Below, one piece after another: positions 29,170 to 61,650 of a stretch of DNA of 64,000 nt (its first letter is position 1; the number at the start of each line of letters is the position of its first letter). The notes beneath the pieces were generated by a model that saw nothing but the letters and a program-made list of their open reading frames with translations, was not told the DNA's origin and did no database searches. The stretch comes from an uncultured bacterium (GTDB taxonomy: Bacteria; Verrucomicrobiota; Kiritimatiellia; RFP12; UBA1067): contig CACWIW010000006.1 in NCBI GenBank assembly GCA_902761035.1, positions 14,462 through 78,461 on the forward strand. Direction: 5' to 3'. The position numbers and the translations under genes were made by a program.

Positions 29170-29224
29170 TTCATCGTACCTTTCTTTTTCTTGGTGATTC
29201 TGAAATTATGATCGCAGTCATTGT

Positions 29225-31407: not shown

Positions 31408-31408
31408 T

Positions 31409-31819: not shown

Positions 31820-31826
31820 CTCAACT

Positions 31827-42416: not shown

Positions 42417-42420
42417 ATCC

Positions 42421-43830: not shown

Positions 43831-43832
43831 TC

Positions 43833-44954: not shown

Positions 44955-45008
44955 TTCATCGTACCTTTCTTTTGAGGGTGATTCTGGGGTTACGGCCGCA
45001 ATCGTTTC

Positions 45009-46211: not shown

Positions 46212-46247
46212 CTCTCACCTTACCTCAACAATCATCTCACGTACACG

Positions 46248-46271
46248 GTACGTCACATATCGCAATATGTG
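46248..46271. promoter_or_regulatory. Operator-like imperfect palindrome GGTACGTCACATAT-N4-ATATGTG in the ppd-B promoter
   Basis: CACATAT/ATATGTG 7-bp inverted arms. It is reiterated at 46467, 52622, 54865, 61365 and 61610. Confidence 0.45.
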
Positions 46272-46466
46272 AAGCAACGCGGCAACGCTCCGCGCCCGTG
46301 GGGTATGCAGCCGAATACCTCATTCCTTCGCATTCTGATGTTTTAGCCACCATCGCGTTGCCGCATAGTGTAACCTATTTGTTGCGGGGTGTCAATGGGG
46401 AGACTTTGGATCTTCAGTTCCCAAACTCACCTTCACCACCACACACTTCACTCTGTCTGTCCACGC

Positions 46467-46491
46467 GGTACGTCACTTATCCGAATATGTG
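46467..46491. promoter_or_regulatory. Second copy of the operator-like palindrome (cacttatccgaatatgtg variant)
   Basis: ggtacgtcacttatccgaatatgtg. Confidence 0.4.
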
Positions 46492-46591
46492 ACGACGATA
46501 TTAGGAACCGCATCCGCATCTATCCTTTTCTGCAACTGTTCCCTGTGAGGGGAATCGACTACAGTGCATGAATGGGAAAAACCTTCGACGT

Positions 46592-47611
46592 TTACTGCGT
46601 GAGGCGAACTCGGAAGAATCTGGCCGTAGCACCGTCAGGAAGCGACCATGAGGTGCCAGTTGAATCTGGTTCCAGAATGACGGGCGAGGACCACTCATTC
46701 AGATTGCCTGTACCAATAACCGAAATGGTAAAACCAGTATGGTCTTCGACAACAGGAGGCGTGGTGATTACAGGTTTTCCGGAAGCGTCGAAGGATATCG
46801 ACAGCAGAGTTGTCTCACCGGAAACCAGACCTTCACCGAAGGTATAGACGAGCGCATTCGCCCACGTACCACCCCACTTGGCAGGTTTGGCGTCCCAGGC
46901 CGCATCTCCGCCCGAAAGACCGTTCGTTGACAACCACACTTGAAAACGATCCTCAACATGCACCGTCCACATTGTCTCCGTGATGTTGTAGCCGTCAGAG
47001 ATCGAGCAACTGACCGTATATACTCCGACCTCGGCTGGCGTGAACGTAAACGAACTGTCCGACGTATCACCCGACGAGGCATATTCCGCACAGTCGAAAT
47101 TGGGGTACTCAATGTTCACAACCCAACTATAGGTCAATTCGCTCAACTCGCTATCAGATGCGTTGACGCTGAACGCCAATCTTTCACCACGATTTGTGGC
47201 AATCTCCGAGGCATCTGGAGAGCGGGAAGTTACCTCGGGTGCCTGGTCGGGGATTGAGTAGATTGACGCCGTCGCCTCAGCCATTGTACCGTTTGAGTCT
47301 GTCACAGTCACGGTCACGGACTGTTCGCCCATCAGATTGTGGCCAATCGTCACGTAGAACCTAGCCGACAACTGGTCCGGAGACACATACGTATCGTACC
47401 AGGAGATGTCGCCTCCGCCACTAAACTCCCAGTTATACGACCCCACTCCGCCTGTCGCTATAGCCTCGAAGATCCATATCTGTCCCTCCGAAACGAAATA
47501 CATCGATTCGGTGAACGAGACTGTCAAAGGTTCAGTTTCATTTTCACCGTCCGCAAATCCTGGTATGGTGAACGCCAAGCAGGCGAGCAAAACACTGAAT
47601 TTGTTTTTCAT
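46592..47611 (-). CDS. Secreted/lipoprotein with Ig-like (PKD-type) repeats, unknown function
   Basis: Signal peptide MKNKFSVLLACLAFTIPGFA. Repeated YNWEFSGGG / YSWVVN beta-sandwich-like segments. The track ORF continues upstream in frame into a ppd 5' fragment (MVEVGRFVDGLKAADV). Confidence 0.5.
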   Translation of the reverse strand: MKNKFSVLLACLAFTIPGFADGENETEPLTVSFTESMYFVSEGQIWIFEAIATGGVGSYNWEFSGGGDISWYDTYVSPDQLSARFYVTIGHNLMGEQSVTVTVTDSNGTMAEATASIYSIPDQAPEVTSRSPDASEIATNRGERLAFSVNASDSELSELTYSWVVNIEYPNFDCAEYASSGDTSDSSFTFTPAEVGVYTVSCSISDGYNITETMWTVHVEDRFQVWLSTNGLSGGDAAWDAKPAKWGGTWANALVYTFGEGLVSGETTLLSISFDASGKPVITTPPVVEDHTGFTISVIGTGNLNEWSSPVILEPDSTGTSWSLPDGATARFFRVRLTQ

Positions 47612-47760
47612 GATGCTTCTCCTTCCATTAAAGCGTGGACTTGTATTCACATCCGCCGCCTTCAACCCATCAACAAACCTTCCAACTTCAACCATCTCTC
47701 ACCATCCAACCCGCCCACAAACCTTACAACCATCTCTTATCATCCCTTTTTGTCAAAACA
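47612..47760. repeat. ppd 5' fragment + promoter unit 1 (junction unit), with 23-bp perfect palindrome caaaacaggtcagacctgttttg
   Basis: acatccgccgccttcaacccatcaacaaaccttccaacttcaaccat (= MVEVGRFVDGLKAADV) followed by ctctcaccat...; the palindrome is at about 47750-47772. Confidence 0.7.
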
Positions 47761-47762
47761 GG

Positions 47763-47981
47763 TCAGACCTGTTTTGACATGGTGCCTCCTGCCTCGTCTC
47801 TGTCAAGTGTCCATGGCACGATGATGCGTCCACGCGCCGCATAGATGGGCCGCAACCGCTCTTGCAGCATGACCAGCTGCCGTACCTTCTCGGGATACGA
47901 CAAGGCCGCCTGACTCGCCCTGAAAGTCTCCTTGGCGTACTGCCTCTCGCTCAGAGGTCGCATTTTCACTGCAACTGCCAT
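47763..47981 (-). CDS. Small protein, possible antitoxin partner of the downstream NTase-like gene
   Basis: 72 aa. It overlaps the downstream ORF by 16 nt. There is no recognisable motif. Confidence 0.3.
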   Translation of the reverse strand: MAVAVKMRPLSERQYAKETFRASQAALSYPEKVRQLVMLQERLRPIYAARGRIIVPWTLDRDEAGGTMSKQV

Positions 47982-48472
47982 TTGTCAAACCTCTCTTTCA
48001 AGTTGAAGGTTGAGAGCAAACCCAGAAACTGCGACTCGGAAAACCCCCTGCTCAACTGAAGCATCTGCACGCGCAATTTGTCCTTGAGCCGCCCGGTTTT
48101 GACGCATATCGCCGCCAGATATTCGGCCAACATGACTTTTGTCTCAACACCTTCGTAGTCGAATGACCGCGCCTGAACAAGTGCTTCCTGCAGCAGAGCA
48201 TCATAGGCAGGAAGGAATTGAACCGGCGTTCCTTCAATGTTTATACATTCTTTTTCATACTCATCCGGCAGATATCCCCATTCTTTCAGCTTGCCGTAGA
48301 CAGGCGAAAGCGGCGCCAAGTCGGAATCATCAGGGAAAAGAACAAATATATCAAGATCCATCGTCGTGACGGTCTCAACATAAAACATGGCACCCATCGC
48401 ACCACCAATGGCATAGTCATCAATGACCTTTTCGCGCACCAGGCGATTCAAGACTTCAAGCGTCTTTTTCAT
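47966..48472 (-). CDS. Nucleotidyltransferase-fold protein (MNT/AbiEii-like), putative toxin
   Basis: YAIGGAMGAMFYVETVTTMDLDIFVLF fits the hG[GS]x(9-13)DhD Pol-beta-superfamily NTase signature. Confidence 0.4.
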   Translation of the reverse strand: MKKTLEVLNRLVREKVIDDYAIGGAMGAMFYVETVTTMDLDIFVLFPDDSDLAPLSPVYGKLKEWGYLPDEYEKECINIEGTPVQFLPAYDALLQEALVQARSFDYEGVETKVMLAEYLAAICVKTGRLKDKLRVQMLQLSRGFSESQFLGLLSTFNLKERFDKWQLQ

Positions 48473-48528
48473 ACCATAAGCCTTTCACACCATGCTCTGC
48501 GTGCGTGGGGACTAAAGTGATGCTCAAA

Positions 48529-48700
48529 GGGTCTGACCCCATTGGTGAAGTAGAAGTGGTGGAGTAGTTTTTTTCACAACACAGGTGTCGGTCACATACG
48601 CGCAGAAGCCCTTCAGCAGCGAATCCGGCACGCCAGCGAAGAACTCCACGCCAGAATCATTCAAACAATCAACAAATCTCTTAACTTCTACCATACCATC
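48529..48700. repeat. Junction unit 2: GGGTCTGACCCC palindrome + conserved linker + ppd 5' fragment (MVEVKRFVDCLNDSGVEFFAGVPDSLLKGFCAYVTDTCVVKK)
   Basis: gggtctgaccccattggtgaagtagaagtggtggagtagttttttt cacaacacaggtgtcggtcacatacgcgcagaagcccttcagcagcgaatccggcacgcc.... Confidence 0.75.
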
Positions 48701-48814
48701 AACCCTTCAGCGCCATTGTCGCAATCCAATCTGCCCCAAATGAACCAAATCATACCAACGACTGGTGGACATAACTTCGCAATTATAATATAAGAAATAG
48801 CATTTAAGCACACA

Positions 48815-51385
48815 TCAATCTGTAATTCTCGTCAAAACTGAGACTTGTTCAATCTCATTCAATATTTCTGTGTGAGGCTGTACTTTGGCTGCTATCTCTG
48901 CATAAATATCCGCATTTAATGCTTCAGAAACCTCGTATGTGACAAATAAAGCATATTTCACCGGCTCCACAATCGCTGCAGCATTCTGGCGGCAATTAAC
49001 CTTAACCGTTACATTTTCTGTATCAACAACTGCAATAGCACGTTCATTTACAAAAACTTCATGTTGCACTGTCCCTCGCTTTACCTTTCGATAATCCACT
49101 TCTGTTCGCACACCAATACTACTATCATCAAGGATATTAAACCACAGTTTTGCATTTCGATACTTTCTATTAGTTGTCGTTACAGGTGTCAACCACGCCA
49201 ATGTTACAGTAAACTTCTTATAGCCACGAAATGAATTGACAGAAGGTGGGAGCGGAAAAACGTATGTATGCGCTTTATTATTTTTTAATTGCCCATATCC
49301 AATAAGAGTTACTCGATGATCGCTACATTCAAGTACTCGACTAATGCAACTCAGCCCATAGCCAATGTACTTAGCTATTTTCTTTCGTCCTACTTCGTCC
49401 TTATCATTTAAGCCCAACTTGTCCCCTAGATTACTTCTAATGTCATCCCAACCGGAAGAATGAACAACCATCGCTTTAAGAAGGCATGCTATATATTTAT
49501 CAAACTCTTCCCTTCCAATTCTATTAAGCAGGACATCATACAGCGCTACATATCCTCGACAACAATTGTGTGTTATCAAAGCTGCAGAACAACTGGTTCC
49601 GCGAAAATAACATGTCCTATTCAATTCACCGGGGGCACCTGGACAAGCAACCTTTATCCCTGGAGCACCGCTCGTATTACAAATATTGTATTCGACAAAA
49701 TCAGGCCCACAAGAGCCACTGCCATATAATTGCCGACCGCCATCCATAACTACATCTGGTTTAACGGATCGATTATACCCATCCCCAACAGAAGTTATAG
49801 GACTTGGCATTACTTGTTCAAATGGATTATGTCTATATCCTAGCACAAACTCGGAACAACTATCATTATGAATTGAACCAACAGTAATCGCATTTACAGA
49901 CTCCGCAGGCGAAAGTAACCTTCTATTACGCAAATTTGAATTAATGAATCTGAAGAATAACACCTCTTGCGTTCTCCGATCTTTTGATTCAAATTCCCTT
50001 GCCCCAAGATTAAGCGTTATTTTATCAGCATGATTACCAGAGCTTACAATTATCAGCACATTATACTTATAACTAAGCCAGTCAATCAATCTTGCGAGCG
50101 GGCTCATATCACTAAAAAACTCGCGAGACTCATCCCCGAGTGAGAGATTAATCAGTTTTACTGTCGGTGCTGCTGGAGTTAACTGTCCCTCGCCCTCAAA
50201 AATTCGCCTAATAGCCCTGTGTAATAAATCTACAACAAATACATTTTCAGGTATTTGTTCCCGCCCGTTTTCATATTTGAATATTGGTCTGAGATATATC
50301 TTGCTATTAACTGGCGGCTCGTGTGTATTGAGATCACCATGCAACACAAGTGATGCCATCGCTGTTCCATGAATCTGGTTCTCGAATTGATAATCTTCCG
50401 CGAATTCATCTGGGTCATCTATAATTACCCTGTCCTTCAATAAAGTATGTTCAACTATAGGCAGACCGTCCAACACACCAACTATCGGTTCGGTACACAC
50501 GGCTTCAGTATCACCTGTTACCGTAGTATATGGCTCAACAAACTCCACTTCATCTCTTGTAATCACTTTATTTACGAATTGGCCACAGGGACGAACATAC
50601 ATTATCTCCTCTGCTTTTATAAACTCCGCGTCCCCAGATTCTATAATCTGGGAGACCACGCTCAATGGCATAGCTACCTTAAGAGCGTGATATTTAATTT
50701 CTTCAACACAACATGATGCTATCACCATTCCCTGAGATTCAACAACTAAGGACCTGATTCGTGATTCGGCCTCACTTCTTCTCATATTATCATTCCTATA
50801 CCACAATTCTATATCAAACCTTAGGAAGGTCTCCCCCATGTCGATTGCATGCCTCCAATCCTCCTCAATCCCCGTGTCATGCATTCTATCCTTAACACCC
50901 CAGCGTCGAACATCTTTCAACAAAATAAACAATTGCTTGAACTTTCCAAATCCATGTTCAAAGGTATAATCCGGATTCTCTTTATAATGTTTCCACAAAT
51001 TATATAACTGATCAAGTGCCGTCCTATTACTCATCATCAAATACAAACGCCCATCCGATTGCGTATCTAGTTCTTCATCGTCTTCGTTTATTCTATTTTC
51101 AACAAGCCATTCTAGCCCTTGAATTCTGGCCACACAATTATAAAATGCATCTATCTCACCTAACACCTCCAGAACCAATACCAATTCAGGTTCGACACCC
51201 ATTGCCGATTCTGCCAGATTAGCTCTTTCGGAAACAAAGTTCTCTCTAATGGCAGTTAATTTCGGAGAACAGCTATTCCAAACATCACTTACCGTCTGGC
51301 GGACTGGATGTCCATGACTCGACGGCAACGATTCGCGATCCGCCTCGCTTGGTCTTGGAAATATTAAGAGTGGCCTCTGTGGCAT
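48815..51385 (-). CDS. Subtilisin-like S8 serine peptidase (IetS-like)
   Basis: 856 aa with an S8 catalytic triad context: VGVLDGLP (Asp), HGTAMASLV (His), GTSCSAALITH (Ser). It is paired with the upstream AAA ATPase. Confidence 0.6.
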   Translation of the reverse strand: MPQRPLLIFPRPSEADRESLPSSHGHPVRQTVSDVWNSCSPKLTAIRENFVSERANLAESAMGVEPELVLVLEVLGEIDAFYNCVARIQGLEWLVENRINEDDEELDTQSDGRLYLMMSNRTALDQLYNLWKHYKENPDYTFEHGFGKFKQLFILLKDVRRWGVKDRMHDTGIEEDWRHAIDMGETFLRFDIELWYRNDNMRRSEAESRIRSLVVESQGMVIASCCVEEIKYHALKVAMPLSVVSQIIESGDAEFIKAEEIMYVRPCGQFVNKVITRDEVEFVEPYTTVTGDTEAVCTEPIVGVLDGLPIVEHTLLKDRVIIDDPDEFAEDYQFENQIHGTAMASLVLHGDLNTHEPPVNSKIYLRPIFKYENGREQIPENVFVVDLLHRAIRRIFEGEGQLTPAAPTVKLINLSLGDESREFFSDMSPLARLIDWLSYKYNVLIIVSSGNHADKITLNLGAREFESKDRRTQEVLFFRFINSNLRNRRLLSPAESVNAITVGSIHNDSCSEFVLGYRHNPFEQVMPSPITSVGDGYNRSVKPDVVMDGGRQLYGSGSCGPDFVEYNICNTSGAPGIKVACPGAPGELNRTCYFRGTSCSAALITHNCCRGYVALYDVLLNRIGREEFDKYIACLLKAMVVHSSGWDDIRSNLGDKLGLNDKDEVGRKKIAKYIGYGLSCISRVLECSDHRVTLIGYGQLKNNKAHTYVFPLPPSVNSFRGYKKFTVTLAWLTPVTTTNRKYRNAKLWFNILDDSSIGVRTEVDYRKVKRGTVQHEVFVNERAIAVVDTENVTVKVNCRQNAAAIVEPVKYALFVTYEVSEALNADIYAEIAAKVQPHTEILNEIEQVSVLTRITD

Positions 51386-51391
51386 AACATT

Positions 51392-52378
51392 TTACTCTTT
51401 GTTTGACAATTCCTTGATTACATTCCTAATTGCCTTTTGTATATCTCCATTTGGCAGACTCAAGACGTATTTACGCATAACCGACAAACATACTTCCTCG
51501 AGTTCCGCATACGATAAGTATGCTCTTTTAGCCAATATCTCCTGTAATCTTGTTCCAAACACAATAGCAGACTTCCTTTCAAAACGCCTTATAAATTCAC
51601 CTATACCCCAAGTATCCGGTCCCGGTATTTCTACATGGAGCTGAAATCTCCGCCAAACGGCCCTATCAAGAAGTTCTGGATGATTAGAAGCACCAATAAT
51701 TACAACATGACTCGGCAAATCGTCAATCTTTAACAATAGCGTACTAACAACGCGTTTAACTTCACCTACATCATGTATATCTCCCCGTTCTTTCGCAATT
51801 GCATCAAATTCATCTAGGAAAAGCACACATCTTCGTGTTTTTACAAAATCAAATAAAGCGCTAATACGTGATGCTGTTTCCCCCAAATATGATGCCACTA
51901 GAGTTTCATATTTAACTGTATAAAGCGGAATCATCAGCGCTTCGGCCAAGCCTTCTGCAATAGAAGTTTTACCATTACCCGGGGCCCCAGTTAATAAAAC
52001 TCTATTTCTCGGTGCAAGCGCGTAAGATGCAAGCAAATCAGACCTCAAGTACTCATCCTTTAAATTATCGAGTTTCGTCCTAACACTATCTAAAATAACC
52101 AATTCATCCAGTCTCCTCTTAGGAATCTTTTCGTATACATATTCAGCGCCATTTTGTTTTGGAGCTAAGACAAGATTCCGCGAATAAGAATCTTCGACTT
52201 TATCAATGCCAAATCTACTTCTTTGAAGAGCTTCTTCAATAGCAAGCGCTACTACATCATGCTTCTTCGCCCTCTCTTCTGAAGCGACTGTTTCAGCAAT
52301 TCGTCGAGTTGCGATCCGATCGCCTCGCAATCCAGACTGAATCAATTTAATTATCAAATCAGATCTTGCCATTTCCAC
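51392..52378 (-). CDS. AAA+ ATPase (IetA-like)
   Basis: Walker A GAPGNGKT, Walker B VLFLDEFD, sensor-1 region IGASNHPELLD. Confidence 0.65.
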   Translation of the reverse strand: MEMARSDLIIKLIQSGLRGDRIATRRIAETVASEERAKKHDVVALAIEEALQRSRFGIDKVEDSYSRNLVLAPKQNGAEYVYEKIPKRRLDELVILDSVRTKLDNLKDEYLRSDLLASYALAPRNRVLLTGAPGNGKTSIAEGLAEALMIPLYTVKYETLVASYLGETASRISALFDFVKTRRCVLFLDEFDAIAKERGDIHDVGEVKRVVSTLLLKIDDLPSHVVIIGASNHPELLDRAVWRRFQLHVEIPGPDTWGIGEFIRRFERKSAIVFGTRLQEILAKRAYLSYAELEEVCLSVMRKYVLSLPNGDIQKAIRNVIKELSNKE

Positions 52379-52440
52379 CTCACGAATCTTTAATTATTTG
52401 TCCTGAAATAAGGCCTCGAAGTGTCCCACATGGAACTAAA

Positions 52441-52660
52441 GGGTCAGACCCTTTTGATAAAGTTCATTGATACAGTTGGTGGGACAACCGCCCTTATCCG
52501 TACAATGGCATCCGATTGAAAACTTCACCTGCACGCCTGTAAAGAACTCCACGCCCGCCGCCTTCAACCCATCAACAAACTTTCCAACTTCAACCATCTC
52601 TCACCATCATTTCAAATGCGCGGTACGTCACATATCACAATATGTGCAGCGCTCCACGCC
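52441..52660. repeat. Junction unit 3 (GGGTCAGACCC + short ppd 5' fragment + operator palindrome)
   Basis: gggtcagacccttttgat ... aaagaactccacgcccgccgccttcaacccatcaacaaactttccaacttcaaccatctctcaccatcatttcaaatgcgcggtacgtcacatatcacaatatgtg. Confidence 0.65.
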
Positions 52661-52914
52661 CGCAGCCTTCAATCCACCACCAACAAACCTGTCTCATACC
52701 TTTTGCCAAAACAGGTCAGGCCTGTATTTACACGGCAACGCATAGGCGTTCCTTCTTGTGTTCACGGGCAATCCACCGTGCGAACGCCTCTGCTTCCCTA
52801 TACAAAAACGACAGGTCAGGCGGCGGCGCATCCATTATCATTCGATAAATTTTATTGTTTTGAAGCGCCTCGTATTGTTCTTTAGTAAATACTCGCATAA
52901 TGCCTCCTTGTCAA

Positions 52915-53090
52915 TTTTATGATGTCTCAAAGGGCCCCATTGGTGGAGTAGAAGTGGTGGAGTAGCTTTTTTCACAACACAGGTGTCGGTCACACACGTG
53001 CAGAAACCCTTCAGCAGCGAATCCGGCACGCCGGCGAAGAACTCCACGCCCACCGCCTTCAACCCATCAACAAACTTTCCAACTTCAACC
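52915..53090. repeat. Junction unit 4 (degenerate palindrome + linker + ppd 5' fragment with its start codon lost)
   Basis: agggccccattggtggagtagaagtggtggagtagcttttttcacaacacaggtgtcggtcacacacgtgcag ... ttcaaccccgtgcg; the track ORF 52838..53104 is this relic. Confidence 0.7.
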
Positions 53091-53105
53091 CCGTGCGAAA
53101 ACAAT

Positions 53106-54596: not shown

Positions 54597-54662
54597 GGCG
54601 ACACTACATATCCGTTCACAAAATTACCCAGACTTGGATGTTCAGTTCCCAACGGGGCTAGA

Positions 54663-54950
54663 GGGTCTGGCCCCATTGGTGGAGTAGAAGTGGGGGAGTA
54701 GCTTTTTTCACAACACAGGTGTCGGTCACACACATGCAGAAACTCTTCAGCAGCGAATCCGGCACGCCGGCGAAGAACTCCACGCCCGCCGCCTTCAACC
54801 CATCAACAAACCTTCCAACTTCAACCATCTCTCACCTTACCTCAACAATCATTTCACATGCACTGTACGTCACATATCGCAATATGTGAAGCAACGCGGC
54901 AACGCTCCGCGCCCGTGGGGTATGCAGCCGAATACCTCATTCCATTTCCG
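54663..54950. repeat. Junction unit 5 (full-length copy of ppd-B promoter + 5' fragment + junction palindrome)
   Basis: 54700-54945 is near-identical to 46112-46330, including the operator and the cgctccgcgcccgtggggtatgcagccgaatacctcattcc motif. Confidence 0.8.
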
Positions 54951-55335
54951 CATGTGCATTTCTCCGCTCATGTTTGAGCCGTATAGTATACCATTTCCCC
55001 GCTGACTTATCCACCGTTTGACCATGCTGTTGATGATTTTCTTCTGTTGTTCCGCCACATGTGCCTAACGGCCTTTATCAACTCAAAACCACATCTCGAA
55101 ACAAGAATCGCTCTAAACCCTTACGACAATACTAGTTGTTCCAGAGTTGGCAATCATCCCATGATCCGCCGCGATTTCTCGTCCTTGTCCCACATATTCT
55201 TGAACAGATTCTTGTCCTTCAGCATATCCCAGCACTAATCCATCAATACCGGCTTATACCCAGCCGCTCAATCGTTTTATAATGCCCCCGCCGCATTTTA
55301 TACCATATTCCCGTATTTTCACCTCGTCTGAAAAT

Positions 55336-55971
55336 TCATGCCGCCTCTCGGTATGTTACAGTAGCGCAATCACGACTTGAAGAAGTCACCCTGTAGATTC
55401 GCCTTACCTCTGGCAAGACCTCTGTCTTAAAACTTGCAGAGAACGCCGTCTCCAAATTGATGTGTACGGGACCACCGCCATGCCATTTCAATGCCAACAA
55501 TGCCCGATTAACTTTAAGTTCGCAATCGCGCTCCTCTTCATAAGTCCTCGGTAGCGGACACTGTACAGAAAGATTCACGATGTCAGACGGCAAATGGATA
55601 CGGTCTGTCATCTGAGGCCACATGTTCCCGATATGGGAACTGTGCTGTGAACTTGTTATAGCCAGAACCGGCAACTTGCGATAATATGCCTCGGTAAGGG
55701 CTGGCATGTAATTCCTACTGGCCGTGGCTCCTGTACAATTGATAACAACTGGCTCTCCAGATTCCTCTGCGATGCCAACAGCGAGATATCCTGCGTGCCG
55801 TTCATCGACAGCAGAATACAACTTGAAGAACGGATCGCCCTGCACACTTAAGACGAAGCAATCATTCGTCGCCCCAGGGCTTAAGATCAAATGCTTAATC
55901 CCATACGCCTTCAGCAGCGCAATCACAATCTGCGCATTCTTCTCGTCAGTGTAGTAATGCTTTCCACTCAT
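55336..55971 (-). pseudogene. TPP-enzyme N-terminal domain only (truncated MenD/ALS/ppd-like gene, or ComD-like alpha subunit)
   Basis: 211 aa: KNAQIVIALLKAYGIKHLILSPGATNDCFVL ... GPVHINL is a TPP_enzyme_N domain, and no middle or C-terminal domains follow. Its first 23 codons are duplicated at 59472-59541. Confidence 0.45.
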
Positions 55972-56322
55972 TTTCTCGCTCCGCTTTTGTTATCCGCTAG
56001 TTTTCGTACCCAAATGTTTATCATGTTGTCCGCACTTACACGACAACAGTATTCAATTTCATCCTACGATTCGGGGACAAGTCTTTAGGCTAATAGGTTG
56101 CAGACCTATTTACTCTCCTTGGCATAACATAATATAGTCCGGGGACCCTACTTCCATGATACGATTTTCATAAATGGCCACATCCTTATCACAAGATTTA
56201 TCGTTGTAAACAAAAAGACGAATTGGTCTGCCAACAACTCTACTGACTTCATCAGAGACCCCACCGTACGATGTTTTATGGATACACTCGTCCTCAATAC
56301 GAAACTACCACTCCCATATTAA

Positions 56323-56793
56323 TTACTGTTTGCTTATATATTTACATAATTTTGTCAAATCAACAAGGGCATATTCATAGGCTTCTTTTATTGCACCAAG
56401 TAACTCTGCTTTCGATTCACATTCTACCGTTTTTCCCATATACTTCAAGTTTACAGGATAACCAGTAACAGGATTTAACTCATAACCAAAAATCCTTACA
56501 CCCCTATCAAGGACATAAACAACTACTTCATCCTTCATTTGTCTTGGTACCGTTGGGTTTTTCACCATCCCTGGCAATCCAATCATCATTGAATTCTCTT
56601 GGAAATGTGATATCGTAGAGGATAGTATTTGTAAACTTGAATTGAATTGTATTGTTATATCATATTTTTCCTTGAATGCTTCTACCATTGAATCTTTAAA
56701 ATCAGAAATTGTAGATATTATTTCTCTCCTATTTGCGAGACCTATTGGTATCTTATCTAATCCTACTTTAACAAAATTGAAATCCTCTTTCAC
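56323..56793 (-). CDS. Hypothetical protein, partner of the EEP nuclease
   Basis: 156 aa with no recognisable motif. There is a 1-nt gap to the upstream EEP gene. Confidence 0.4.
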   Translation of the reverse strand: MKEDFNFVKVGLDKIPIGLANRREIISTISDFKDSMVEAFKEKYDITIQFNSSLQILSSTISHFQENSMMIGLPGMVKNPTVPRQMKDEVVVYVLDRGVRIFGYELNPVTGYPVNLKYMGKTVECESKAELLGAIKEAYEYALVDLTKLCKYISKQ

Positions 56794-56794
56794 A

Positions 56795-57589
56795 TTATGC
56801 TCCTTTCTGCCATGAAATGGTTATTCCAACAGGGCTGTGTTCACTTTTTTCTGGATTATATGTCGTTGTTCCATAAATTCTTTCAGTACAATCAAACCTA
56901 TCCAATGAAAGAAAGGAAGACGATATTAGTAAAAAATCAAACAGTGCTCTTGTACTCTTTATGTCATCCACATTTTTGCAATTCAAACTTCCCACTTCAT
57001 CATGCATCTGACGCCAAAATGGATTGAAGAATCCTCCATGTTTTTTGACAAAATCACTTGATCGACTGACATTTAATGACCGCAATGCAGGCGACCATGG
57101 CTCAACGTTAAAATCCCCCATTACTATAGCAACTGCATCCTTTAATCGCCGCTGATCATCTCCAAATGCCAATCTATTCAACTTTCCTGCTGCGGCACGT
57201 TTTCTATCATCGCTATATGGAGCATCTTTTTGATTCCAATGGACAAGAAAGACATCCAACGAGGCATATAGCGCACTAACATTAAGCCGAACTCGTTGAC
57301 AAACGCGATATTGCCCACTAACTTCTGCCGAATCTGTCTTAACAATATTCCTATCCTCTTCACCAAAACTACAATCTACCTTTATTCGAGCTGAATTATA
57401 AATAAGCATTGTCTTAAAATTTATGCGACCAGATTGATGTATAAGTGGCATGATCTTCATTTTCTTTGGGCACAATGAGCCTATTCTCTTAACTAAGTCC
57501 AAATCACCTATTTCGCCCAACCCAATGATATCATTCTCTTTAGACAACAGATTGATTGTCCGCAATACCGATGCTGTGTTACAACACAC
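56795..57589 (-). CDS. Endonuclease/exonuclease/phosphatase (EEP) family protein
   Basis: VAIVMGDFNVEPWSPAL (EEP catalytic DFN motif) and an H-containing C-terminal motif. Confidence 0.55.
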   Translation of the reverse strand: MCCNTASVLRTINLLSKENDIIGLGEIGDLDLVKRIGSLCPKKMKIMPLIHQSGRINFKTMLIYNSARIKVDCSFGEEDRNIVKTDSAEVSGQYRVCQRVRLNVSALYASLDVFLVHWNQKDAPYSDDRKRAAAGKLNRLAFGDDQRRLKDAVAIVMGDFNVEPWSPALRSLNVSRSSDFVKKHGGFFNPFWRQMHDEVGSLNCKNVDDIKSTRALFDFLLISSSFLSLDRFDCTERIYGTTTYNPEKSEHSPVGITISWQKGA

Positions 57590-57722
57590 ATCACCACCAT
57601 AGGGACTAAGGCTCGTATTCCACCAAGCGATAGAAAGCGATCCTCCCTTTCTAGGTTTACCTATACACGACTCGTTAATAACAGAAAACCCTTTAAGATT
57701 TTATGCCAAGGCCTCCATGAGG

Positions 57723-58142
57723 TTAGACCCCATTGACGCAAACACTGGCGTTAATTCGATCTAGGGGGATTGTTAGGACGTGCCTCACAGCCCATTCACC
57801 AATTGGATAGCCAATTGCCAGCAAGACAATTGGGAACACAGTCTCGATTGTCAGCGCAGTGTTGAACCACCGTCTACTTTCCTCAAGGGCGGCCTCCTTA
57901 TCATTGGCGGCCATAGCCTGTCCAATTGATATCGCGTAAAACCTAGTAGCCCCTCCAACAACGACGCTGTTGAAAAAGCCGATGAAACCTATCAGACATC
58001 CAACAGCTCCCAATAACCCATAGTCCACTTCGCCTAGCGCCATCAGTATCCACCGTCCGCAAAACAACCCGATTATAAGCGCATACAGGCTCCGCCCATA
58101 TGTGGCTATAATGTTCAGAAATATTCTACGATTCGGAGACAT
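57723..58142 (-). pseudogene. Wzx flippase N-terminal fragment (remnant)
   Basis: The 139 aa (ATYGRSLYALIIGLFCGRWILMALGEVDYGLLGAVGCLIGFIGFFNSVVVGGATRFYAISIGQ) match the first 3-4 TM helices of Polysacc_synt/Wzx. The reading frame ends at the junction palindrome at 57720. Confidence 0.55.
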
Positions 58143-58208
58143 GGCTGTTATTTCTCAAAGATCAATGGCGTTTGACCAATCGTTGTAATTAACCCAATCA
58201 CTTCATTA

Positions 58209-59336
58209 TTATCCATTAGAATCGGCTTTAGGCGGTTGATTTCGCACAGTTGACACCGCATTCGCTAATTTTGCTACACAGTCAGCTACTTCGGACAATG
58301 GGGTTTGTGTTTTAACCTTATCAAGTGTCGAATTCGGATTCGAGCAAAGCACCCTAATCGTTTTTGACATCAAATCCTCGCTCAATTCTTTAGCACTTGA
58401 CACACCCTTATTCGCAAGCTCTTCTACCTGTTTTGCCATTCCAGTATATGTCTGCGCAACAACTACCTTATGGGCATATTCTTCCATTAATCGCCTATCT
58501 TGATTCATCAACTTATTTAGATGACACGTTAACCAAAATAGTGGCAGCACAAGCGGAGCTTTGCTCAACATGGCTTTTACAATCTTACCCCATAGGTCAT
58601 CACCAACTATTGATCCAACAGAAGAAACTGCGCACGAACCAATTATGCAAAACCCAATCAAACAGGCATAAAAGGAAATTCGTTCAAATATATACCTATT
58701 ACCTATCGACTTACGTTTCTCCTCAAATTGTGAACTCAATGTAGCAACTGTAGCCGTTGCCAACATGTCCTTCAACTTGCCCTGAAGCTCCTCGCAAGTG
58801 CTCTTGTTTTCTTCGATGAATTTCTTCAATGAATTAACAGCATTAGTCTGGCACTTTAAGGAGAATGTTTCAATTGATCTTTCTGCATCTTCTATTTTCT
58901 TGTCTACTTTGTCATGCAGATCATCAGAGGCTTTACGCAACTCATCCAAATCGGCATCTTCTCGCTGCCGTTCTTGCATCCAAGATTCTTTAGTTGATTG
59001 TAGTTTCGTCTCAAACTCACTAATGCTGCGCTCACAACGACCAAGCCTTTCAGCTAGTTCTTTGCTTTTGGTAAGGTCACTTACCAGATTACTCAAAGCA
59101 TCTGATGAATGCGCCGCCAAGTTATTATTTCCAGATGGGGTAAGAGATCTGGATGCGTTCCCTACTGCAGCTGAGGCAGCTCGCATTGCTACTAAGAACT
59201 GCTTCTGCAACTCTGGCGATACACCATTAAATGTCTTCAGCAGCGATTCCTCCGGCTCAATACCCAAGGCATCTCTGAGCCGCTGTTTTGCATCTGCATT
59301 TATCGCATTCTGGACTACTGGATTTGAACTCTTCAA
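58209..59336 (-). CDS. Coiled-coil membrane protein (2 TM), unknown function
   Basis: 375 aa with an N-terminal coiled coil of about 190 aa, two hydrophobic helices (ISFYACLIGFCIIGSCAVSSVGSIV; APLVLPLFWLTCHL) and a C-terminal soluble region. Confidence 0.45.
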   Translation of the reverse strand: MKSSNPVVQNAINADAKQRLRDALGIEPEESLLKTFNGVSPELQKQFLVAMRAASAAVGNASRSLTPSGNNNLAAHSSDALSNLVSDLTKSKELAERLGRCERSISEFETKLQSTKESWMQERQREDADLDELRKASDDLHDKVDKKIEDAERSIETFSLKCQTNAVNSLKKFIEENKSTCEELQGKLKDMLATATVATLSSQFEEKRKSIGNRYIFERISFYACLIGFCIIGSCAVSSVGSIVGDDLWGKIVKAMLSKAPLVLPLFWLTCHLNKLMNQDRRLMEEYAHKVVVAQTYTGMAKQVEELANKGVSSAKELSEDLMSKTIRVLCSNPNSTLDKVKTQTPLSEVADCVAKLANAVSTVRNQPPKADSNG

Positions 59337-59471
59337 TTTGTTTGATCCTCACTGTCGCGTTCCATAAACTTCACCCGTCTCTTTATGTTCTTTAAGTATT
59401 ATTCGCATACATGTCCTCCCGTTTTATTTGCCGCAAATTATACCATTTATCTTCTCTCTACAAGCCGCACC

Positions 59472-59541
59472 ATGCGTCTTCAGCAACGCAATCACAATCT
59501 GCGCATTCGTCTCGTCTGTGTAGCAATGTTTTCCACTCATA
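59472..59541 (-). repeat. Duplicated 5' fragment (23 codons) of the TPP-N gene at 55336..55971
   Basis: atgagtggaaaacattgctacacagacgagacgaatgcgcagattgtgattgcgttgctgaag is about 90% identical to 55902-55971. Confidence 0.75.
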
Positions 59542-59673
59542 CAACCACTCTCCTCATGTCAAGGCTTCGCGCCATAACACAATGTTTCCAACCCTTTCCT
59601 TTAAGTAACGCAACTGATAAATCTATGTCATGTACAATCATGCACAATCCTACGACACCGTCATATCAGAACG

Positions 59674-60162
59674 TCAACTTGACGATTCGGAAGATTCTGA
59701 ATTCCGTATCTCCGCATATTCATGTGCCTTTTCCAATAAATCTATACTCTCAAGAGAATGCGCAGATGAAGATAATATCGGATATGTTGAAAGCACAAAA
59801 GTTGCAAGCCCAGAATGCTGTCTTTCTTTATAGATGGAAACCACTTTATTTATAACATTCCTGATCTGTTCGGGAATGTCTTCTGGAGGGCGAATCAAAC
59901 ACCGCACCTCTTGATTTACATCATCCACCTCAAATTCTTGTTTTGAAGATCTAAGATATGATTCCAACCCTTCGTCCGCCAAACCATGTCGAAATACTTT
60001 CCATTGAACATCGACCACACGACAATTGTATTTAATGCAGGAATGCCAATCACATAGATAAACCAATAACAACAAGGTTATTTGGTCGACCCGATTACTT
60101 CCTGTCGCCGCACTTATAAGTACGGAAACAAATTGACCAAGTTGTATTTTTTCGCTGTCCAT
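59674..60162 (-). CDS. Hypothetical protein (first of a two-gene cassette)
   Basis: 162 aa with no recognisable motif. It is separated from the upstream gene by 1 nt. Confidence 0.4.
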   Translation of the reverse strand: MDSEKIQLGQFVSVLISAATGSNRVDQITLLLLVYLCDWHSCIKYNCRVVDVQWKVFRHGLADEGLESYLRSSKQEFEVDDVNQEVRCLIRPPEDIPEQIRNVINKVVSIYKERQHSGLATFVLSTYPILSSSAHSLESIDLLEKAHEYAEIRNSESSESSS

Positions 60163-60163
60163 G

Positions 60164-61024
60164 TTAAAACTCCTCCAATTCTTTTACCTTGTCCGGCGAC
60201 GGGATATAGTCTTTAAATGCATGGATAACAGCTCCGAGTTTCTGGCAACTAGGCTTTACGATCTTTTCTATTTCCGCATCATCTCTGCCACCAATCCCTT
60301 TTATCAATGAAGCGATAACAATAATGGCAAGATGTTCCCCCTTACAATCAATCCGAGTTCCCCAATATGTCCGTCCATGAAATTTAATACTCTGTATATC
60401 ATCCGCTGATAAATTATAAACTTTTTTACAATATGATTCATACTCTCGCTTCCCCTTCTTTCCATTGGAGATTTTAGGGAATTTATCATCATATAACTTT
60501 CCTTCATCCCAAATCTTCTTGAACATTTTTGCTAATGGTCTCATTCGACAACTTTTCTTTTCATATTCGAGATTAGTTGAACATCTTTCACAACAGAAAT
60601 ATTGTTGCGCATCCCCATTGCCCTGTACAAGGTAGAGAGATATTCTGTCACTGTTGCCCAAATCTAGTTCACTACGAAGGCTCTCCAATATGCCATGAAG
60701 CGCGGATGGAACAACTTTCTCCATCGTGGATATTTTACCTTGGAATTCTTCTACTTTATCCCTTAATCCATCGTTCTCATCTGATAACTTTGTCACACTT
60801 TTCTTCGTGATATGAGAAATTAGAACACGAACTACTACTAGTATAATAATCATTCCAAAGGCGCTCCATGCAACGGCTCGCCCATAAGACATATTAACAC
60901 TATCTGGGAGAAGCGCACCACGAACCTCTGAAGACAGAAACAACGGAGAAACCACGACCAAACCTTCATATACAATACGAAGAGGTATTGCATATTTCTC
61001 TATCCACATTATAAAAGTTTTCAT
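60164..61024 (-). CDS. Membrane-anchored (2 TM) protein with a Cys-rich globular domain, unknown function
   Basis: The start is taken at MKTFIMWIEKY because the longer track ORF runs into the junction palindrome. It has two N-terminal TM helices, a coiled coil and a CCERC...C region. Confidence 0.45.
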   Translation of the reverse strand: MKTFIMWIEKYAIPLRIVYEGLVVVSPLFLSSEVRGALLPDSVNMSYGRAVAWSAFGMIIILVVVRVLISHITKKSVTKLSDENDGLRDKVEEFQGKISTMEKVVPSALHGILESLRSELDLGNSDRISLYLVQGNGDAQQYFCCERCSTNLEYEKKSCRMRPLAKMFKKIWDEGKLYDDKFPKISNGKKGKREYESYCKKVYNLSADDIQSIKFHGRTYWGTRIDCKGEHLAIIVIASLIKGIGGRDDAEIEKIVKPSCQKLGAVIHAFKDYIPSPDKVKELEEF

Positions 61025-61047
61025 ACTAAACCTTTGGCGGACGGATA

Positions 61048-61068
61048 CTATGGGGTCAGACCCCATAG
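61048..61068. repeat. Perfect 21-bp palindrome CTATGGGGTC-A-GACCCCATAG (junction site)
   Basis: Seen directly in the sequence. The same GGGGTCAGACCCC core occurs at 48529, 52441, 54663, 57720 and 61422. Confidence 0.85.
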
Positions 61069-61286
61069 TAAGAATCAGCGAAGTATGTTCAACCATCTTA
61101 ACGCGAATACCTTCTTGCCGCCCACTTCACAACTTCCAGCGGCACTGTCTTCCGTTCGCGCGGAAACGCAGACTTCTCGCTTTTCGACACCTTGGTGACG
61201 AAGTTTGCCGATCCAATTATACCACCCGACGTGAAGAGCGCATCTTCCCGATCTTCCTGTTCCGCCATGTCTGCGTCCATCCTGAT

Positions 61287-61400
61287 CCGCAACTGCCCGC
61301 CGCCTTCAACCCATCAATGAATCTTACAACACCAACCATTTCTCGACATCATTTCATCTGCGCGGCACGTCACTTATGCGAATATGTGCAAGGTTGGGAT
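61287..61400. repeat. Junction unit 6 (short ppd 5' fragment + operator)
   Basis: ccgccgccttcaacccatcaatgaatcttacaacaccaaccat ... cgcggcacgtcacttatgcgaatatgtg. Confidence 0.65.
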
Positions 61401-61421
61401 GGAGACGTGGAGGGGCTCAAA

Positions 61422-61650
61422 GGGTCTGACCCCATTGGTGGAGTAGAAGTGGTGGAGTAGCTTTTTCACAACACAGGTGTCGGTCACACACGTGCAGAAA
61501 CTCTTCAGCAACGAATCCGGCACACCGGCGAAGAACTCCACGCCCGCAGCCTTCAACCCATCAATGAATCTTCCAACTTCAACAATCTCTCACCATCATT
61601 TCACATGCGCGGTACGTCACTTATTTGAATATGTGCAGCCGCTCATGTTT
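61422..61650. repeat. Junction unit 7 (palindrome + linker + ppd 5' fragment + operator)
   Basis: gggtctgaccccattggtggagtagaagtggtggagtagctttttcacaacacaggtgtcggtcacacacgtgcagaaactcttcagcaacgaatccggcacacc ... ggtacgtcacttatttgaatatgtg; the track ORF 61374..61556 is this relic. Confidence 0.75.

What the first reader, a model, noticed from the sequence alone, without database searches (positions are those of the whole stretch)
46212..61650. Defence-cargo hotspot built from reiterated copies of the ppd promoter, operator and first 15-40 codons, each ending in a constant junction sequence
The evidence for the array is as follows.
- At least seven units were found (47612, 48529, 52441, 52915, 54663, 61287, 61422).
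- Each unit repeats the ppd-B start region, MVEV.(R/K)FVD.LKAAGVEFFAGVPDSLLK.FC..VTDT, and some also repeat the full upstream promoter.
- At the codon after VTDT every copy switches to the same non-ppd sequence (TGTGTTGTGAAAAAAGCTACTCCACCACTTCTACTCCACCAATGGGGTCAGACCC).
- All 15-plus cargo genes lie between units and all are on the minus strand.

This matches serial site-specific integration of related elements into one att site inside the 5' end of ppd. Under that model each element would reconstitute the gene and leave attL-like relics behind.

An alternative is a cassette array of a type not recognisable from this sequence.

No integrase or recombinase gene is present in the window.
Basis: partly seen in the sequence, partly recalled or inferred. 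Interest (0 to 1): 0.9.

Follow-up and report, generated by a model that had tools for sequence, protein, structure and literature searches.

The report
Defence-gene cassette array with reiterated ppd heads
At the head of a surface-sugar gene cluster in an uncultured rumen bacterium, anti-phage genes sit in a one-way array whose spacers are copies of the next gene's start fused to a small dispersed repeat, a layout that resembles an integron but has no integrase.

Summary
The repeats are real, but the description needs correcting. The window holds about 11 pieces of the ppd-B start region. Only 4 end in the "constant junction"; the others stop at codons 11-24 with different joins.

The junction is not ppd-specific. 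It is a ~60-nt dispersed element (R). In related rumen Kiritimatiellae MAGs, R flanks an IS200/RAYT-like Y1 transposase gene as an inverted pair, and it also occurs alone in many other contexts.

Two further modules are reiterated: a promoter plus an invariant leader (P-L), and a 29-nt palindrome (pal) that follows cargo stop codons.

Other genomes carry the same layout at the rml/glycan-locus head with different cargo, and no integrase within 10 kb in four independent arrays. One cassette is 99.6% identical in three arrays while its flanking units differ. Identity breakpoints vary between pairs. The ppd fragments derive from at least 5 ppd alleles.

Best reading (confidence 0.45): a cassette array built and shuffled by recombination within the reiterated ppd-head/R spacers, which also keep a start signal in front of ppd. 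A dedicated integrase acting at one att point is not supported. A Y1-transposase-driven, integron-like mechanism is not excluded.

The parts
62775..63866 (-). Cargo: AAA_15/AAA_21 ATPase (363 aa), upstream of the truncated rmlC. The array therefore continues to the contig end.
   Evidence: Pfam. 97% identical over 1033 nt to L026:12686-13718 in another array.
62098..62778 (-). Cargo: DUF3226 protein (226 aa), partner of the ATPase.
   Evidence: Pfam.
61670..62032 (-). rmlC fragment covering Pfam profile positions 53-166 of 168; the 5' ~150 nt are missing. It is followed directly by unit Ua, and rmlC-O-S is syntenic in other genomes.
   Evidence: Window 62046-61414 aligns with L024:9541-10174, L034:11837-12367 and L036:8759-9341.
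61416..61639 (-). Unit Ua: O hairpin/promoter-like box, S (ppd codons 1-37, 61476-61586; start codon mutated to TTG) and R (61416-61475).
61295..61390 (-). Unit Ub: O plus ppd codons 1-16, then an unrelated join.
61050..61066 (-). Palindrome module ATGGGGTCTGACCCCAT, the same core as the R end, inside the annotated start of the 310-aa ORF.
59674..61096 (-). Cargo: 310-aa and 162-aa ORFs with no family match.
59470..59540 (-). Relic: second copy (90% identity) of the first 71 nt of the TPP-enzyme gene at 55901-55971.
58209..59336 (-). Cargo: 375-aa coiled-coil/membrane protein with only weak SMC-like hits.
57723..58142 (-). Relic: flippase-like N-terminal fragment. Its first 66 nt recur in L024:13460 and L026:2398.
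56323..57589 (-). Cargo: EEP-family nuclease/phosphatase (264 aa) plus a 156-aa ORF.
   Evidence: Pfam.
55336..55971 (-). Relic: truncated TPP-enzyme gene (N-terminal domain only, 211 aa).
   Evidence: Pfam.
54658..55013 (-). Unit Uc, the most complete unit: TG-extended -10 promoter (54985-55013), L core (54900-54943), O (54843-54899), S (54718-54828) and R (54658-54717). S and R together read as a 56-aa ORF.
   Evidence: 93% identical to ppd-B's own upstream region over 225 nt.
53106..54596 (-). Cargo: DUF4062 + HATPase_c_4 + wHTH protein (496 aa).
   Evidence: The same cassette is in L009 (96%); its 3' end with the following unit is shared with L004 and L026.
52926..53090 (-). Unit Ud: S (no promoter; ATG changed to GGG) plus R carrying a 5-nt deletion in its palindrome.
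52701..52898 (-). Cargo: 56-aa ORF (52728-52898), followed by a pal copy (about 52703-52727).
   Evidence: 95% identical to L026:2772-2945.
52436..52693 (-). Units Ue and Uf: S codons ~4-18 joined to O (the same join is seen in L002), then S codons 1-24, then 75 nt ending in the palindrome module GGGTCTGACCCTTTAG (52436-52451).
48815..52378 (-). Cargo: IetA (AAA ATPase, 51392-52378) and IetS (S8 peptidase, 48815-51385), a known anti-phage pair.
   Evidence: PADLOC: IetA E 2e-123, IetS E 4e-286. Pfam.
48523..48694 (-). Unit Ug: S from a different ppd allele (MVEVKRFVDCLNDSG...) plus R. It has no promoter.
   Evidence: Its N-terminus matches the full-length ppd allele P0186.
47751..48472 (-). 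Cargo cassette: 168-aa and 72-aa ORFs, then pal (47751-47779).
   Evidence: About 99.6% identical (3-4 mismatches in ~770 nt) to L034:9207-10000 and to L105, while the flanking S units differ.
47653..47740 (-). Units Uh and Ui: S codons 1-11, a 59-nt microhomology deletion relative to L002, then RBS plus S codons 1-15 fused in frame to the next ORF.
46592..47695 (-). Cargo: secreted Ig-like (Big_9/PKD) protein. As an ORF it starts with 15 ppd codons. Its own start with a signal peptide is the ATG at 47611.
   Evidence: It is called as 339 aa in L002.
46420..46492 (-). Uj: an isolated O fragment plus a leader fragment, absent from the sister strain L002.
46212..46416 (-). Native head of ppd-B: promoter TTGACA-N17-TACACT (46367-46395), leader with the invariant L core (46283-46359), O hairpin CACATATTGCGATATGTG (46226-46282) and RBS.
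   Evidence: 97-99% identical to five copies in L024 and one in L034.
45009..46211 (-). ppd-B: intact phosphonopyruvate decarboxylase (400 aa), first gene of the phosphonate/glycan operon downstream of the array.

Best explanation
The region is the variable head of a surface-glycan (phosphonoglycan) locus in an uncultured rumen Kiritimatiellae bacterium.

**Layout.** Defence cassettes are stacked in one orientation. Each spacer between cargoes is a composite built from the locus's own 5' control region. In gene direction the modules are:
- pal, a 29-nt palindrome directly after the cargo stop codon; or
- a promoter plus an invariant leader (P-L), then an O hairpin;
- the RBS and the first 37-38 codons of ppd (S);
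- a ~60-nt REP-like element (R).

**Proposed mechanism (inferred).**
- The S-R fusion arose once.
- It now serves as portable homology. Recombination between two direct S(-R) repeats loops out a circle carrying R, cargo and S.
- A single crossover of such DNA within S of a resident ppd, or within any other unit, inserts the cassette.
- That crossover leaves the resident ppd head as a relic fused to R, and places a fresh promoter and start in front of ppd.
- Secondary microhomology deletions then trim the units.

**Shown.**
- The module layout.
- R's relationship to the termini of the Y1-transposase gene.
- Cargo variation between genomes.
- Near-identical cassettes in different arrays.
- Variable identity breakpoints.
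- Multiple ppd alleles in S.
- Absence of an integrase nearby.

**Not shown.** The circle intermediate, dependence on RecA, and expression of cargo from the units.
For: - **Layout recurs in at least 6 independent arrays** (window, L024, L026, L034, L036, L105): cargo, then pal or P-L-O, then S, then R, then cargo.
- **Units do not cluster by array.** Identity is 83-97% both within and between genomes.
- **Shared cassette.** The 168+72-aa cassette is about 99.6% identical in the window, L034 and L105, while the adjacent S units differ.
- **Breakpoints vary.**
  - R co-travels with that cassette in L034/L105, where the break lies inside S, but not in window/L034.
  - The RhuM cassette (L034/L036) breaks about 25 nt into S.
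  - The DUF7724/7723 cassette (L024/L034) runs from the P edge to the outer edge of R.
- **Several ppd alleles.** The allele-specific first 16 codons of S-R relics match at least 5 different full-length ppd alleles. The junction and codons 17-37 are common to all.
- **No recombinase nearby.** No recombinase family among array ORFs or within +/-10 kb of four other arrays. No Y1 homologue in any array locus.
- **Strain-level differences are small microhomology deletions**.
- **ppd-B stays intact** with a full P-L-O head.
Against: - In several pairs, near-identity starts or ends within a few nt of R's outer edge: window/L034, L034/L036, L024/L034 and window/L004. Plain homologous recombination does not predict this. 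That edge lies close to where the Y1-gene-flanking copies of R end.
- Homologous recombination does not explain how new cargo first acquires the flanking modules.
- The units are 83-97% identical and only ~170 nt long, so they are modest substrates for RecA.
- No circular junction and no single-cassette gain or loss between near-isogenic strains was observed. Five assemblies of this strain have the same order.
Confidence: 0.45

Rival explanations
1. An integron-like system serviced in trans by the RAYT-like Y1 (HUH) transposase. R, and possibly pal (which shares the GGTCWGACC core), are single-strand recombination sites. The enzyme cuts and rejoins at a fixed distance from the palindrome. Cassettes move as single-stranded circles and land next to another R or next to GACAC-type targets such as ppd codons 36-37.
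For: - R flanks a gene as an inverted pair in L017, L021, L022 and L023, and in 23 of 72 metagenome copies.
- That gene matches Pfam Y1_Tnp (33 bits, above cut-off) and NCBIfam REP_Tyr_transpos (E 3e-15).
- One MAG (RUG14821) holds both an S-R unit (L004) and an R-flanked Y1 gene (L021).
- R's outer edge is a recurrent identity breakpoint.
- The same S|R and pal|R join (GACA|CCTGT) is seen with two different left partners.
- A 56-nt indel made of two palindrome modules separates otherwise identical strains.
- GGTCWGACC occurs 5 times in the array and nowhere else in the window (0.28 expected).
Against: - No Y1 gene in the window or in any array locus.
- Other breakpoints lie inside S or at P, not at R.
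- Many cassettes are preceded by P-L rather than R.
- RAYTs are not known to move genes; this rests on the literature found (PMC3116915, PMC5581495).
- R's build, two 11-nt direct repeats plus an 11-nt palindrome, is not the usual GTAG-palindrome REP.
- The NCBIfam score is below the family cut-off.
Confidence: 0.2
2. A family of small integrative elements uses a tyrosine or serine integrase, encoded outside the window, to integrate serially at one att site at ppd codon 37/38. Each element carries a replacement ppd head. R is the conserved arm of attP.
For: - A constant S|R junction in 4 window copies and in at least 80 distinct relic-ORF clusters from metagenomes.
- The two 11-nt direct repeats in R look like arm-type binding sites (direct reading of the sequence).
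- Relics derive from several ppd alleles.
- ppd is reconstituted at the end of the array.
Against: - R is a dispersed repeat found mostly outside ppd contexts and at Y1-gene termini.
- No integrase within 10 kb in four independent arrays, nor among the array ORFs of the window.
- Cassettes are as small as 0.3-0.8 kb.
- Breakpoints are variable, and units sit upstream of rmlC and of operons that lack ppd.
- There were no hits in viral contigs.
Confidence: 0.1
3. A purely local product: degenerate tandem duplication and decay of the ppd head within one lineage, with cargo acquired by unrelated events and no cassette mobility.
For: - Many units are truncated at different codons.
- Differences between sister strains are small microhomology deletions.
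- Five assemblies of the strain have the same order.
Against: - Units of one array are not each other's closest relatives.
- S units derive from at least 5 ppd alleles.
- Whole cassettes are 99-99.6% identical between arrays that otherwise differ.
Confidence: 0.05

Closest known systems
Sedentary chromosomal integron cassette arrays, which are known to carry phage-defence cassettes (papers found, e.g. 10.1101/2024.07.02.601719, PMC12614218)
   Same: - A one-directional array of small, mostly 1-2-gene cassettes.
- Family-conserved spacers of ~0.1-0.3 kb.
- Defence and toxin-like cargo.
- The same cassette found in different arrays.
- The array sits next to a fixed promoter-bearing site.
   Different: - No IntI and no attI.
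- The spacers do not fold as an attC-like hairpin (z -1.2 and -1.9) and have no R''/R' boxes.
- The spacers are made of a gene's promoter and first codons plus a REP-like element.
- Many cassettes bring their own promoter.
- Breakpoints are not at one nucleotide.
REP / REPIN elements and their RAYT (Y1, IS200-like) transposases (PMC3116915, PMC3337134, PMC3479197, PMC3733652)
   Same: - R flanks a Y1_Tnp/REP_Tyr_transpos-like gene as an inverted pair.
- R occurs as many solo copies in intergenic DNA.
- R contains a short palindrome.
- A palindrome-module doublet is polymorphic between strains.
   Different: - R consists of two 11-nt direct repeats (CTACTCCACCA) plus an 11-nt palindrome, not a GTAG- or CGTC-tagged hairpin.
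- The protein is 361 aa with an extra C-terminal wHTH and scores below the NCBIfam cut-off.
- REPs are not known to delimit gene cassettes or to be fused to a reiterated gene head.
Integrating elements that target the 5' end of a gene and supply a new promoter and N-terminus, such as SXT/R391 in prfC. This comparison is from my own knowledge and was not checked here.
   Same: Inserted DNA is bracketed by two copies of the gene's 5' end. The gene stays functional through an element-borne head. Tandem accretion is possible.
   Different: No integrase, no conjugation or phage genes, cassettes of 0.3-7 kb, variable crossover positions, and several other kinds of reiterated module.
Orphan-module arrays downstream of CDI, Rhs or MafB toxin genes, and Neisseria minimal mobile elements. 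This comparison is from my own knowledge and was not checked here.
   Same: A reiterated fragment of a conserved gene precedes each variable module and acts as a handle for homologous recombination. Exchange occurs between strains without a dedicated recombinase.
   Different: Here the handle is the promoter-proximal head of a biosynthetic gene, the cargo consists of independent defence genes, and recombination does not swap part of the handle gene's own product.

Membership tests
Integron | Integron integrase (intI) next to the array | tested here: not met
   No recombinase family among the window's array ORFs. No recombinase family in the precomputed Pfam lists for +/-10 kb of L024, L026, L034 and L036. 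ORFs in window 9-45 kb were scanned only in part.
Integron | attC sites: imperfect inverted repeats that fold as a hairpin, with R''/R' core boxes | tested here: not met
   The whole spacer folds no better than shuffled sequence on either strand (z -1.23 and -1.85). Only local hairpins form. No GTTRRRY/RYYYAAC pair is seen at the spacer edges (direct reading).
Integron | Co-oriented, mostly promoterless cassettes | tested here: inconclusive
   Co-orientation is met. However, many cassettes are preceded by P-L or O promoter-like modules.
REP/RAYT system | A Y1 (HUH) transposase-family gene flanked by inverted copies of the repeat | tested here: met
   L017, L021, L022 and L023. 13 copies at 5' ends and 10 at 3' ends among 72 metagenome copies. 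Pfam Y1_Tnp is above cut-off.
REP/RAYT system | The protein belongs to the RAYT family proper | tested here: inconclusive
   NCBIfam REP_Tyr_transpos: E 3.4e-15, 56 bits, against a cut-off of 80. Only the C-terminal half of the profile is matched. No solved-structure relative was found by sequence.
REP/RAYT system | The repeat is a short tagged palindrome (GTAG or CGTC head) dispersed in many intergenic copies | tested here: inconclusive
   Dispersed solo copies are confirmed. The build, two direct repeats each containing GTAG on the complementary strand plus an 11-nt palindrome, differs from described REPs. Copy number per genome cannot be tested on fragmented MAGs.
Integrase-mediated genomic island at a gene's 5' end | An integrase gene at one end of the inserted DNA | tested here: not met
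   Same evidence as for intI. The contig ends 86 nt beyond the window.
Integrase-mediated genomic island at a gene's 5' end | One crossover point shared by all insertions | tested here: not met
   Identity breakpoints fall at the R outer edge, inside S and at the P edge. S relics end at codons 11 to about 52.
Integrase-mediated genomic island at a gene's 5' end | The target gene is reconstituted by an incoming copy of its 5' end | tested here: met
   ppd-B is intact with a complete P-L-O head, while older heads lie upstream as relics. Relics stem from several ppd alleles.
Defence island / hotspot | A cluster of known defence genes whose content varies between conserved flanks in related genomes | tested here: met
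   IetAS, AAA_15/21 pairs, DUF4062/HATPase_c_4, SIR2_2, type I R-M, RhuM and others, all at the rml/glycan head in different genomes.
IetAS defence system | Adjacent IetA (AAA ATPase) and IetS (S8 peptidase) genes | tested here: met
   PADLOC: IetA E 2e-123, IetS E 4e-286. The genes are adjacent and co-oriented at 48815-52378.

The most novel reading that the evidence does not exclude
The array is a new kind of cassette platform, functionally analogous to an integron. A domesticated HUH (RAYT-like Y1) transposase encoded elsewhere in the genome uses the REP-like R and pal sites as single-strand recombination sites. It captures, stacks and shuffles promoter-equipped defence cassettes at the head of a surface-glycan operon.
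Probability: 0.15. Interest if true: 0.9.

Novelty: new variant of a known kind. Interest (0 to 1): 0.62.

Why it matters
- **A different way to build an integron-like array.** The result looks like an integron: a one-way, shuffling stack of defence cassettes that does not silence the essential operon behind it. The parts differ: copies of that operon's own promoter, leader and first codons, plus a REP-like repeat.
- **A link between phage receptors and phage defence.** The array sits at the head of a surface-glycan locus, and surface glycans are phage receptors. Receptor variation and anti-phage genes are therefore linked in one recombination hotspot in an abundant but uncultured rumen lineage.
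- **A possible role for REP/RAYT systems.** If the Y1 transposase proves to be the recombinase, this would give REP/RAYT systems, whose function is still debated, a concrete role.
- **A practical search handle.** The S-R relic ORF and the invariant L core can be used to find such arrays, and new candidate defence genes, in metagenomes.

Tried and rejected
- **tRNA or tmRNA target:** none in the window.
- **Known RNA family for the leader, O or R:** no Rfam hit at gathering thresholds.
- **Phage or satellite origin of R:** no match in viral contigs.
- **attC-like folding of the spacer:** rejected.
- **pal or R as intrinsic terminators:** terminator-like and promoter-like sites are not enriched (12 found against 14.5 expected; 28 against 30.4). 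pal lacks a downstream T-run.
- **Leader RNA fold:** a 10-bp closing stem is present, but z is only -1.7, and the copies are too similar for covariation analysis.
- **Assembly artefact:** rejected; five assemblies agree.
- **Catching a single-cassette gain or loss between sister strains** (window vs L002/L031, L024 vs L025, L026 vs L027/L028, L034 vs L035): only microhomology indels and one 56-nt palindrome-module indel were found.
- **A fixed target-site duplication around the Y1 element or around R:** none is convincing. L003 shows a 25-nt imperfect duplication of ppd codons 30-38 around R.
- **Literature searches for this layout:** nothing found.

Full report
**1. What the window is**

The window is an ENA metagenome contig (ERZ27279956 k141_1583631, 64,086 nt). 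Almost all genes are on the minus strand and form one very large glycan locus with two paralogous phosphonate clusters. The closest public genomes that share the repeats are rumen and gut Kiritimatiellae/Verrucomicrobiota MAGs.

**2. Check of the observation**

Repeat finding and blastn with the ppd-B head as query recover all seven stated units and about four more pieces.

Read in gene direction (high to low coordinates), the array is:

| Position | Content |
|---|---|
| 61670-62032 | rmlC fragment |
| 61639-61416 | Ua: O, S codons 1-37, R |
| 61390-61295 | Ub: O, 16 codons |
| 61096-55336 | Cargo and gene-start relics |
| 55013-54658 | Uc: promoter, L, O, S, R |
| 54596-53106 | DUF4062 gene |
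| 53090-52926 | Ud: S, R |
| 52898-52701 | 56-aa ORF, then pal |
| 52693-52436 | Ue and Uf |
| 52378-48815 | IetA, IetS |
| 48694-48523 | Ug: S, R |
| 48472-47751 | 168-aa and 72-aa ORFs, then pal |
| 47740-47653 | Uh and Ui |
| 47695-46592 | Ig-like protein ORF |
| 46492-46420 | Uj |
| 46416-46212 | P-L-O head of ppd-B |
| 46211-45009 | ppd-B |

- The junction string and the O palindrome are each expected about 0 times by chance.
- Only the four full-length S copies run into the constant sequence. The other copies stop at about codons 11, 15, 16, 18 and 24.
- The same order is present in five independent assemblies, so the structure is real.
- Cargo includes a bona fide IetAS system, a DUF4062/HATPase_c_4 protein, an EEP nuclease, and an AAA_15 + DUF3226 pair upstream of the truncated rmlC.
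- The array also holds relics of other gene starts: a TPP-enzyme gene (two copies) and a flippase.
- No recombinase family was found among the array ORFs.

**3. The junction is a dispersed REP-like element (R)**

- The 56-aa ORF formed by S plus the junction has well over 80 distinct 90%-identity clusters in metagenomes. The junction-encoded tail is more conserved than the ppd part.
- A pattern scan of species-representative genomes and of JGI metagenomes found the core CTACTCCACCACTYCTACTCCACCAATGGGGTCWGACCC mostly outside ppd contexts.
- In L017, L021, L022 and L023, two inverted copies flank a 361-aa gene. That gene matches Pfam Y1_Tnp above its cut-off and NCBIfam REP_Tyr_transpos (E 3e-15, below its cut-off), and it has a C-terminal wHTH.
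- Of 72 metagenome copies, 23 abut such genes, about 15 are of the S-R or pal-R type, and the rest lie in other recurrent or unique contexts. Three look like chance matches.
- R therefore behaves like the REP of a RAYT-like gene. Its build is atypical: two 11-nt direct repeats plus an 11-nt palindrome.
- No Y1 homologue lies in the window or in any array locus.
- MAG RUG14821 holds both an S-R unit and an R-flanked Y1 gene.

**4. Other reiterated modules**

*pal.* TGTCAAAACAGGTCTGACCTGTTTTGACA shares the GGTCWGACC core with R.
- In nine cases across five arrays and locus L009 it sits directly after a cargo stop codon and directly before the RBS and S. In two further cases it runs straight into R, and a twelfth copy (L008) lies in another context.
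- pal-R fusions share the join GACA|CCTGT with S-R.

*P-L.* This is a near-consensus promoter (TTGACA-N17-TACACT) followed by a leader.
- Its core GGTATTCGGCTGCATACCCCACGGGCGCGGAGCG is nearly invariant (at most 2 mismatches) in the 20 copies recovered.
- It lies about 55-60 nt downstream of four different -10-like boxes.
- It precedes both glycan genes (ppd, DegT, rml genes) and defence cassettes.

GGTCWGACC occurs five times in the array and nowhere else in the window (0.28 expected).

**5. Comparison with other genomes**

Arrays with the same layout but different cargo occur at the rml/glycan head in L024, L026, L034, L036 and L105.
- Cargo there includes AAA_15/21 pairs with DUF4276 or DUF4435, SIR2_2, SLFN_AlbA_2, DUF7724/7723 and RhuM.
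- rmlC-O-S is syntenic across these genomes.
- In L024 and L026 the operon behind the array has no ppd.
- In L034 a 23-codon ppd relic precedes an NTP-transferase operon.
- More distant relatives (ppd 84-90% identical) have no S-R units upstream of ppd, though defence genes still gather nearby.

**6. Evidence bearing on the mechanism**

| Test | Result |
|---|---|
| Do units cluster by array? | No: 83-97% identity both within and between genomes |
| 168+72-aa cassette in window, L034, L105 | About 99.6% identical. In window/L034 near-identity starts right after R. In L034/L105 R is also identical and divergence begins inside S. On the right it runs through pal into the next S. |
| RhuM cassette (L034/L036) | Ends about 25 nt into S |
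| DUF7724/7723 cassette (L024/L034) | Runs from the P edge to the R outer edge |
| DUF4062 cassette | Shares its 3' end plus S-R with L004 and L026, but in L009 follows rmlC-O without S-R |
| Origin of S | The allele-specific first 16 codons of S-R relics match at least 5 different full-length ppd alleles |
| L003 | R sits inside a ppd with a 25-nt imperfect duplication |
| L105 | S continues as ppd to about codon 52 |
| Sister-strain differences | Microhomology deletions, plus one 56-nt indel made of two palindrome modules |

**7. Interpretation**

- The data support repeated insertion of cassette DNA into the 5' part of ppd, or into existing units. The resident head is left behind and a fresh head is placed in front of ppd.
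- They do not support a dedicated integrase acting at one att point.
- The most economical mechanism is recombination within the reiterated S(-R) spacers. This means loop-out of a circle carrying R, cargo and S, then Campbell-type re-insertion after transfer, followed by microhomology trimming.
- The recurrent breakpoint at R's outer edge, R's kinship with the Y1-gene termini, and the mobile palindrome modules keep a Y1-transposase-driven, integron-like mechanism open.
- Purely local duplication is contradicted by the shared cassettes.

**8. Relation to known systems**

- It works like an integron array but fails the integron tests: no IntI and no attC fold.
- R meets the key REP/RAYT criterion of inverted copies around a Y1 gene, but not the sequence-type criteria.
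- It resembles 5'-end-targeting islands in reconstituting the target gene, but lacks an integrase and a unique crossover point.
- Literature searches found no description of this layout.

**9. Caveats**

- All comparison DNA comes from metagenome contigs and MAGs.
- No intermediate was observed.
- Promoter, leader and uORF roles are inferred from sequence only.
- ORFs between 9 and 45 kb were only partly scanned for recombinases.

Noticed in passing
window 46283-46359, 54900-54943, 31879-31913; 17 further copies in L004, L024, L026, L034, L057, L060, L070, L082, L095, L096: A near-invariant ~34-nt leader core (GGTATTCGGCTGCATACCCCACGGGCGCGGAGCG; at most 2 mismatches among the 20 copies recovered) lies about 55-60 nt downstream of four different -10-like boxes. 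It sits in front of both glycan genes and defence cassettes. It may be a regulatory or antitermination leader of these loci. There is no Rfam match.
   Followed up: partly
L026:6103-6158, compared with L027 and L028: A 56-nt insertion/deletion made of two GGTCWGACC-type palindrome modules lies in otherwise identical DNA. This suggests these small palindromes are mobile, in the manner of REPINs.
   Followed up: partly
window 61477, 54719, 52983, 48585; L024:14460; Y1-gene ends in L017, L021, L022 and L023: The pentamer GACAC sits immediately 5' of several different junctions: S|R, pal|R, the Y1 stop codon TGACAC|R, and the outer end CCCGACAC| of the Y1 element. It may be a cleavage or target motif, or a coincidence.
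   Followed up: no
window 20556-22235 (-): An AIPR (abortive-infection) protein is encoded in the middle of the glycan biosynthesis genes, far from the array.
   Followed up: no
window 31405-31875 and 3141-4311 (also 1894-1946, 5774-5950): Small ORFs of the 23S-rRNA-intervening-sequence / four-helix-bundle type (31410-31811; 3361-4308, the latter with a Top1 zinc ribbon) are flanked by inverted blocks of short tandem repeats (GTCGCTAGTTGTTA... and GTCC/GGAC-rich). They look like another family of small inserted elements.
   Followed up: no
window 4305-5450 (-): An RNA ligase with a PHA02142-type OB fold, a phage-like protein, sits among glycosyltransferase genes.
   Followed up: no
window 24336-30340 and 40121-46211: Two paralogous phosphonate clusters (PEP mutase, ppd, aminotransferase) share about 80% DNA identity. 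Only the second (ppd-B) carries the array. ppd-A's head is only 67% identical to ppd-B's head and 61-68% identical to the S units.
   Followed up: partly
window 46592-47695 (-): The Ig-like secreted protein reads as a fusion: 15 ppd codons plus 13 linker codons lie in frame ahead of its own start and signal peptide (ATG at 47611). The sister strain L002 has an intact O copy upstream, and the gene is called from the internal start there.
   Followed up: partly
window 54658-54660, 48524-48526, 61416-61420; L024 and L034 units: Both sequence variants of the array-type R end (..CCCTTTGAG and ..CCCTCTAG) place a stop codon at the same position of the S-R reading frame. R copies next to Y1 genes have no stop there. 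This may hint that the 56-aa ORF is translated as an upstream ORF.
   Followed up: no
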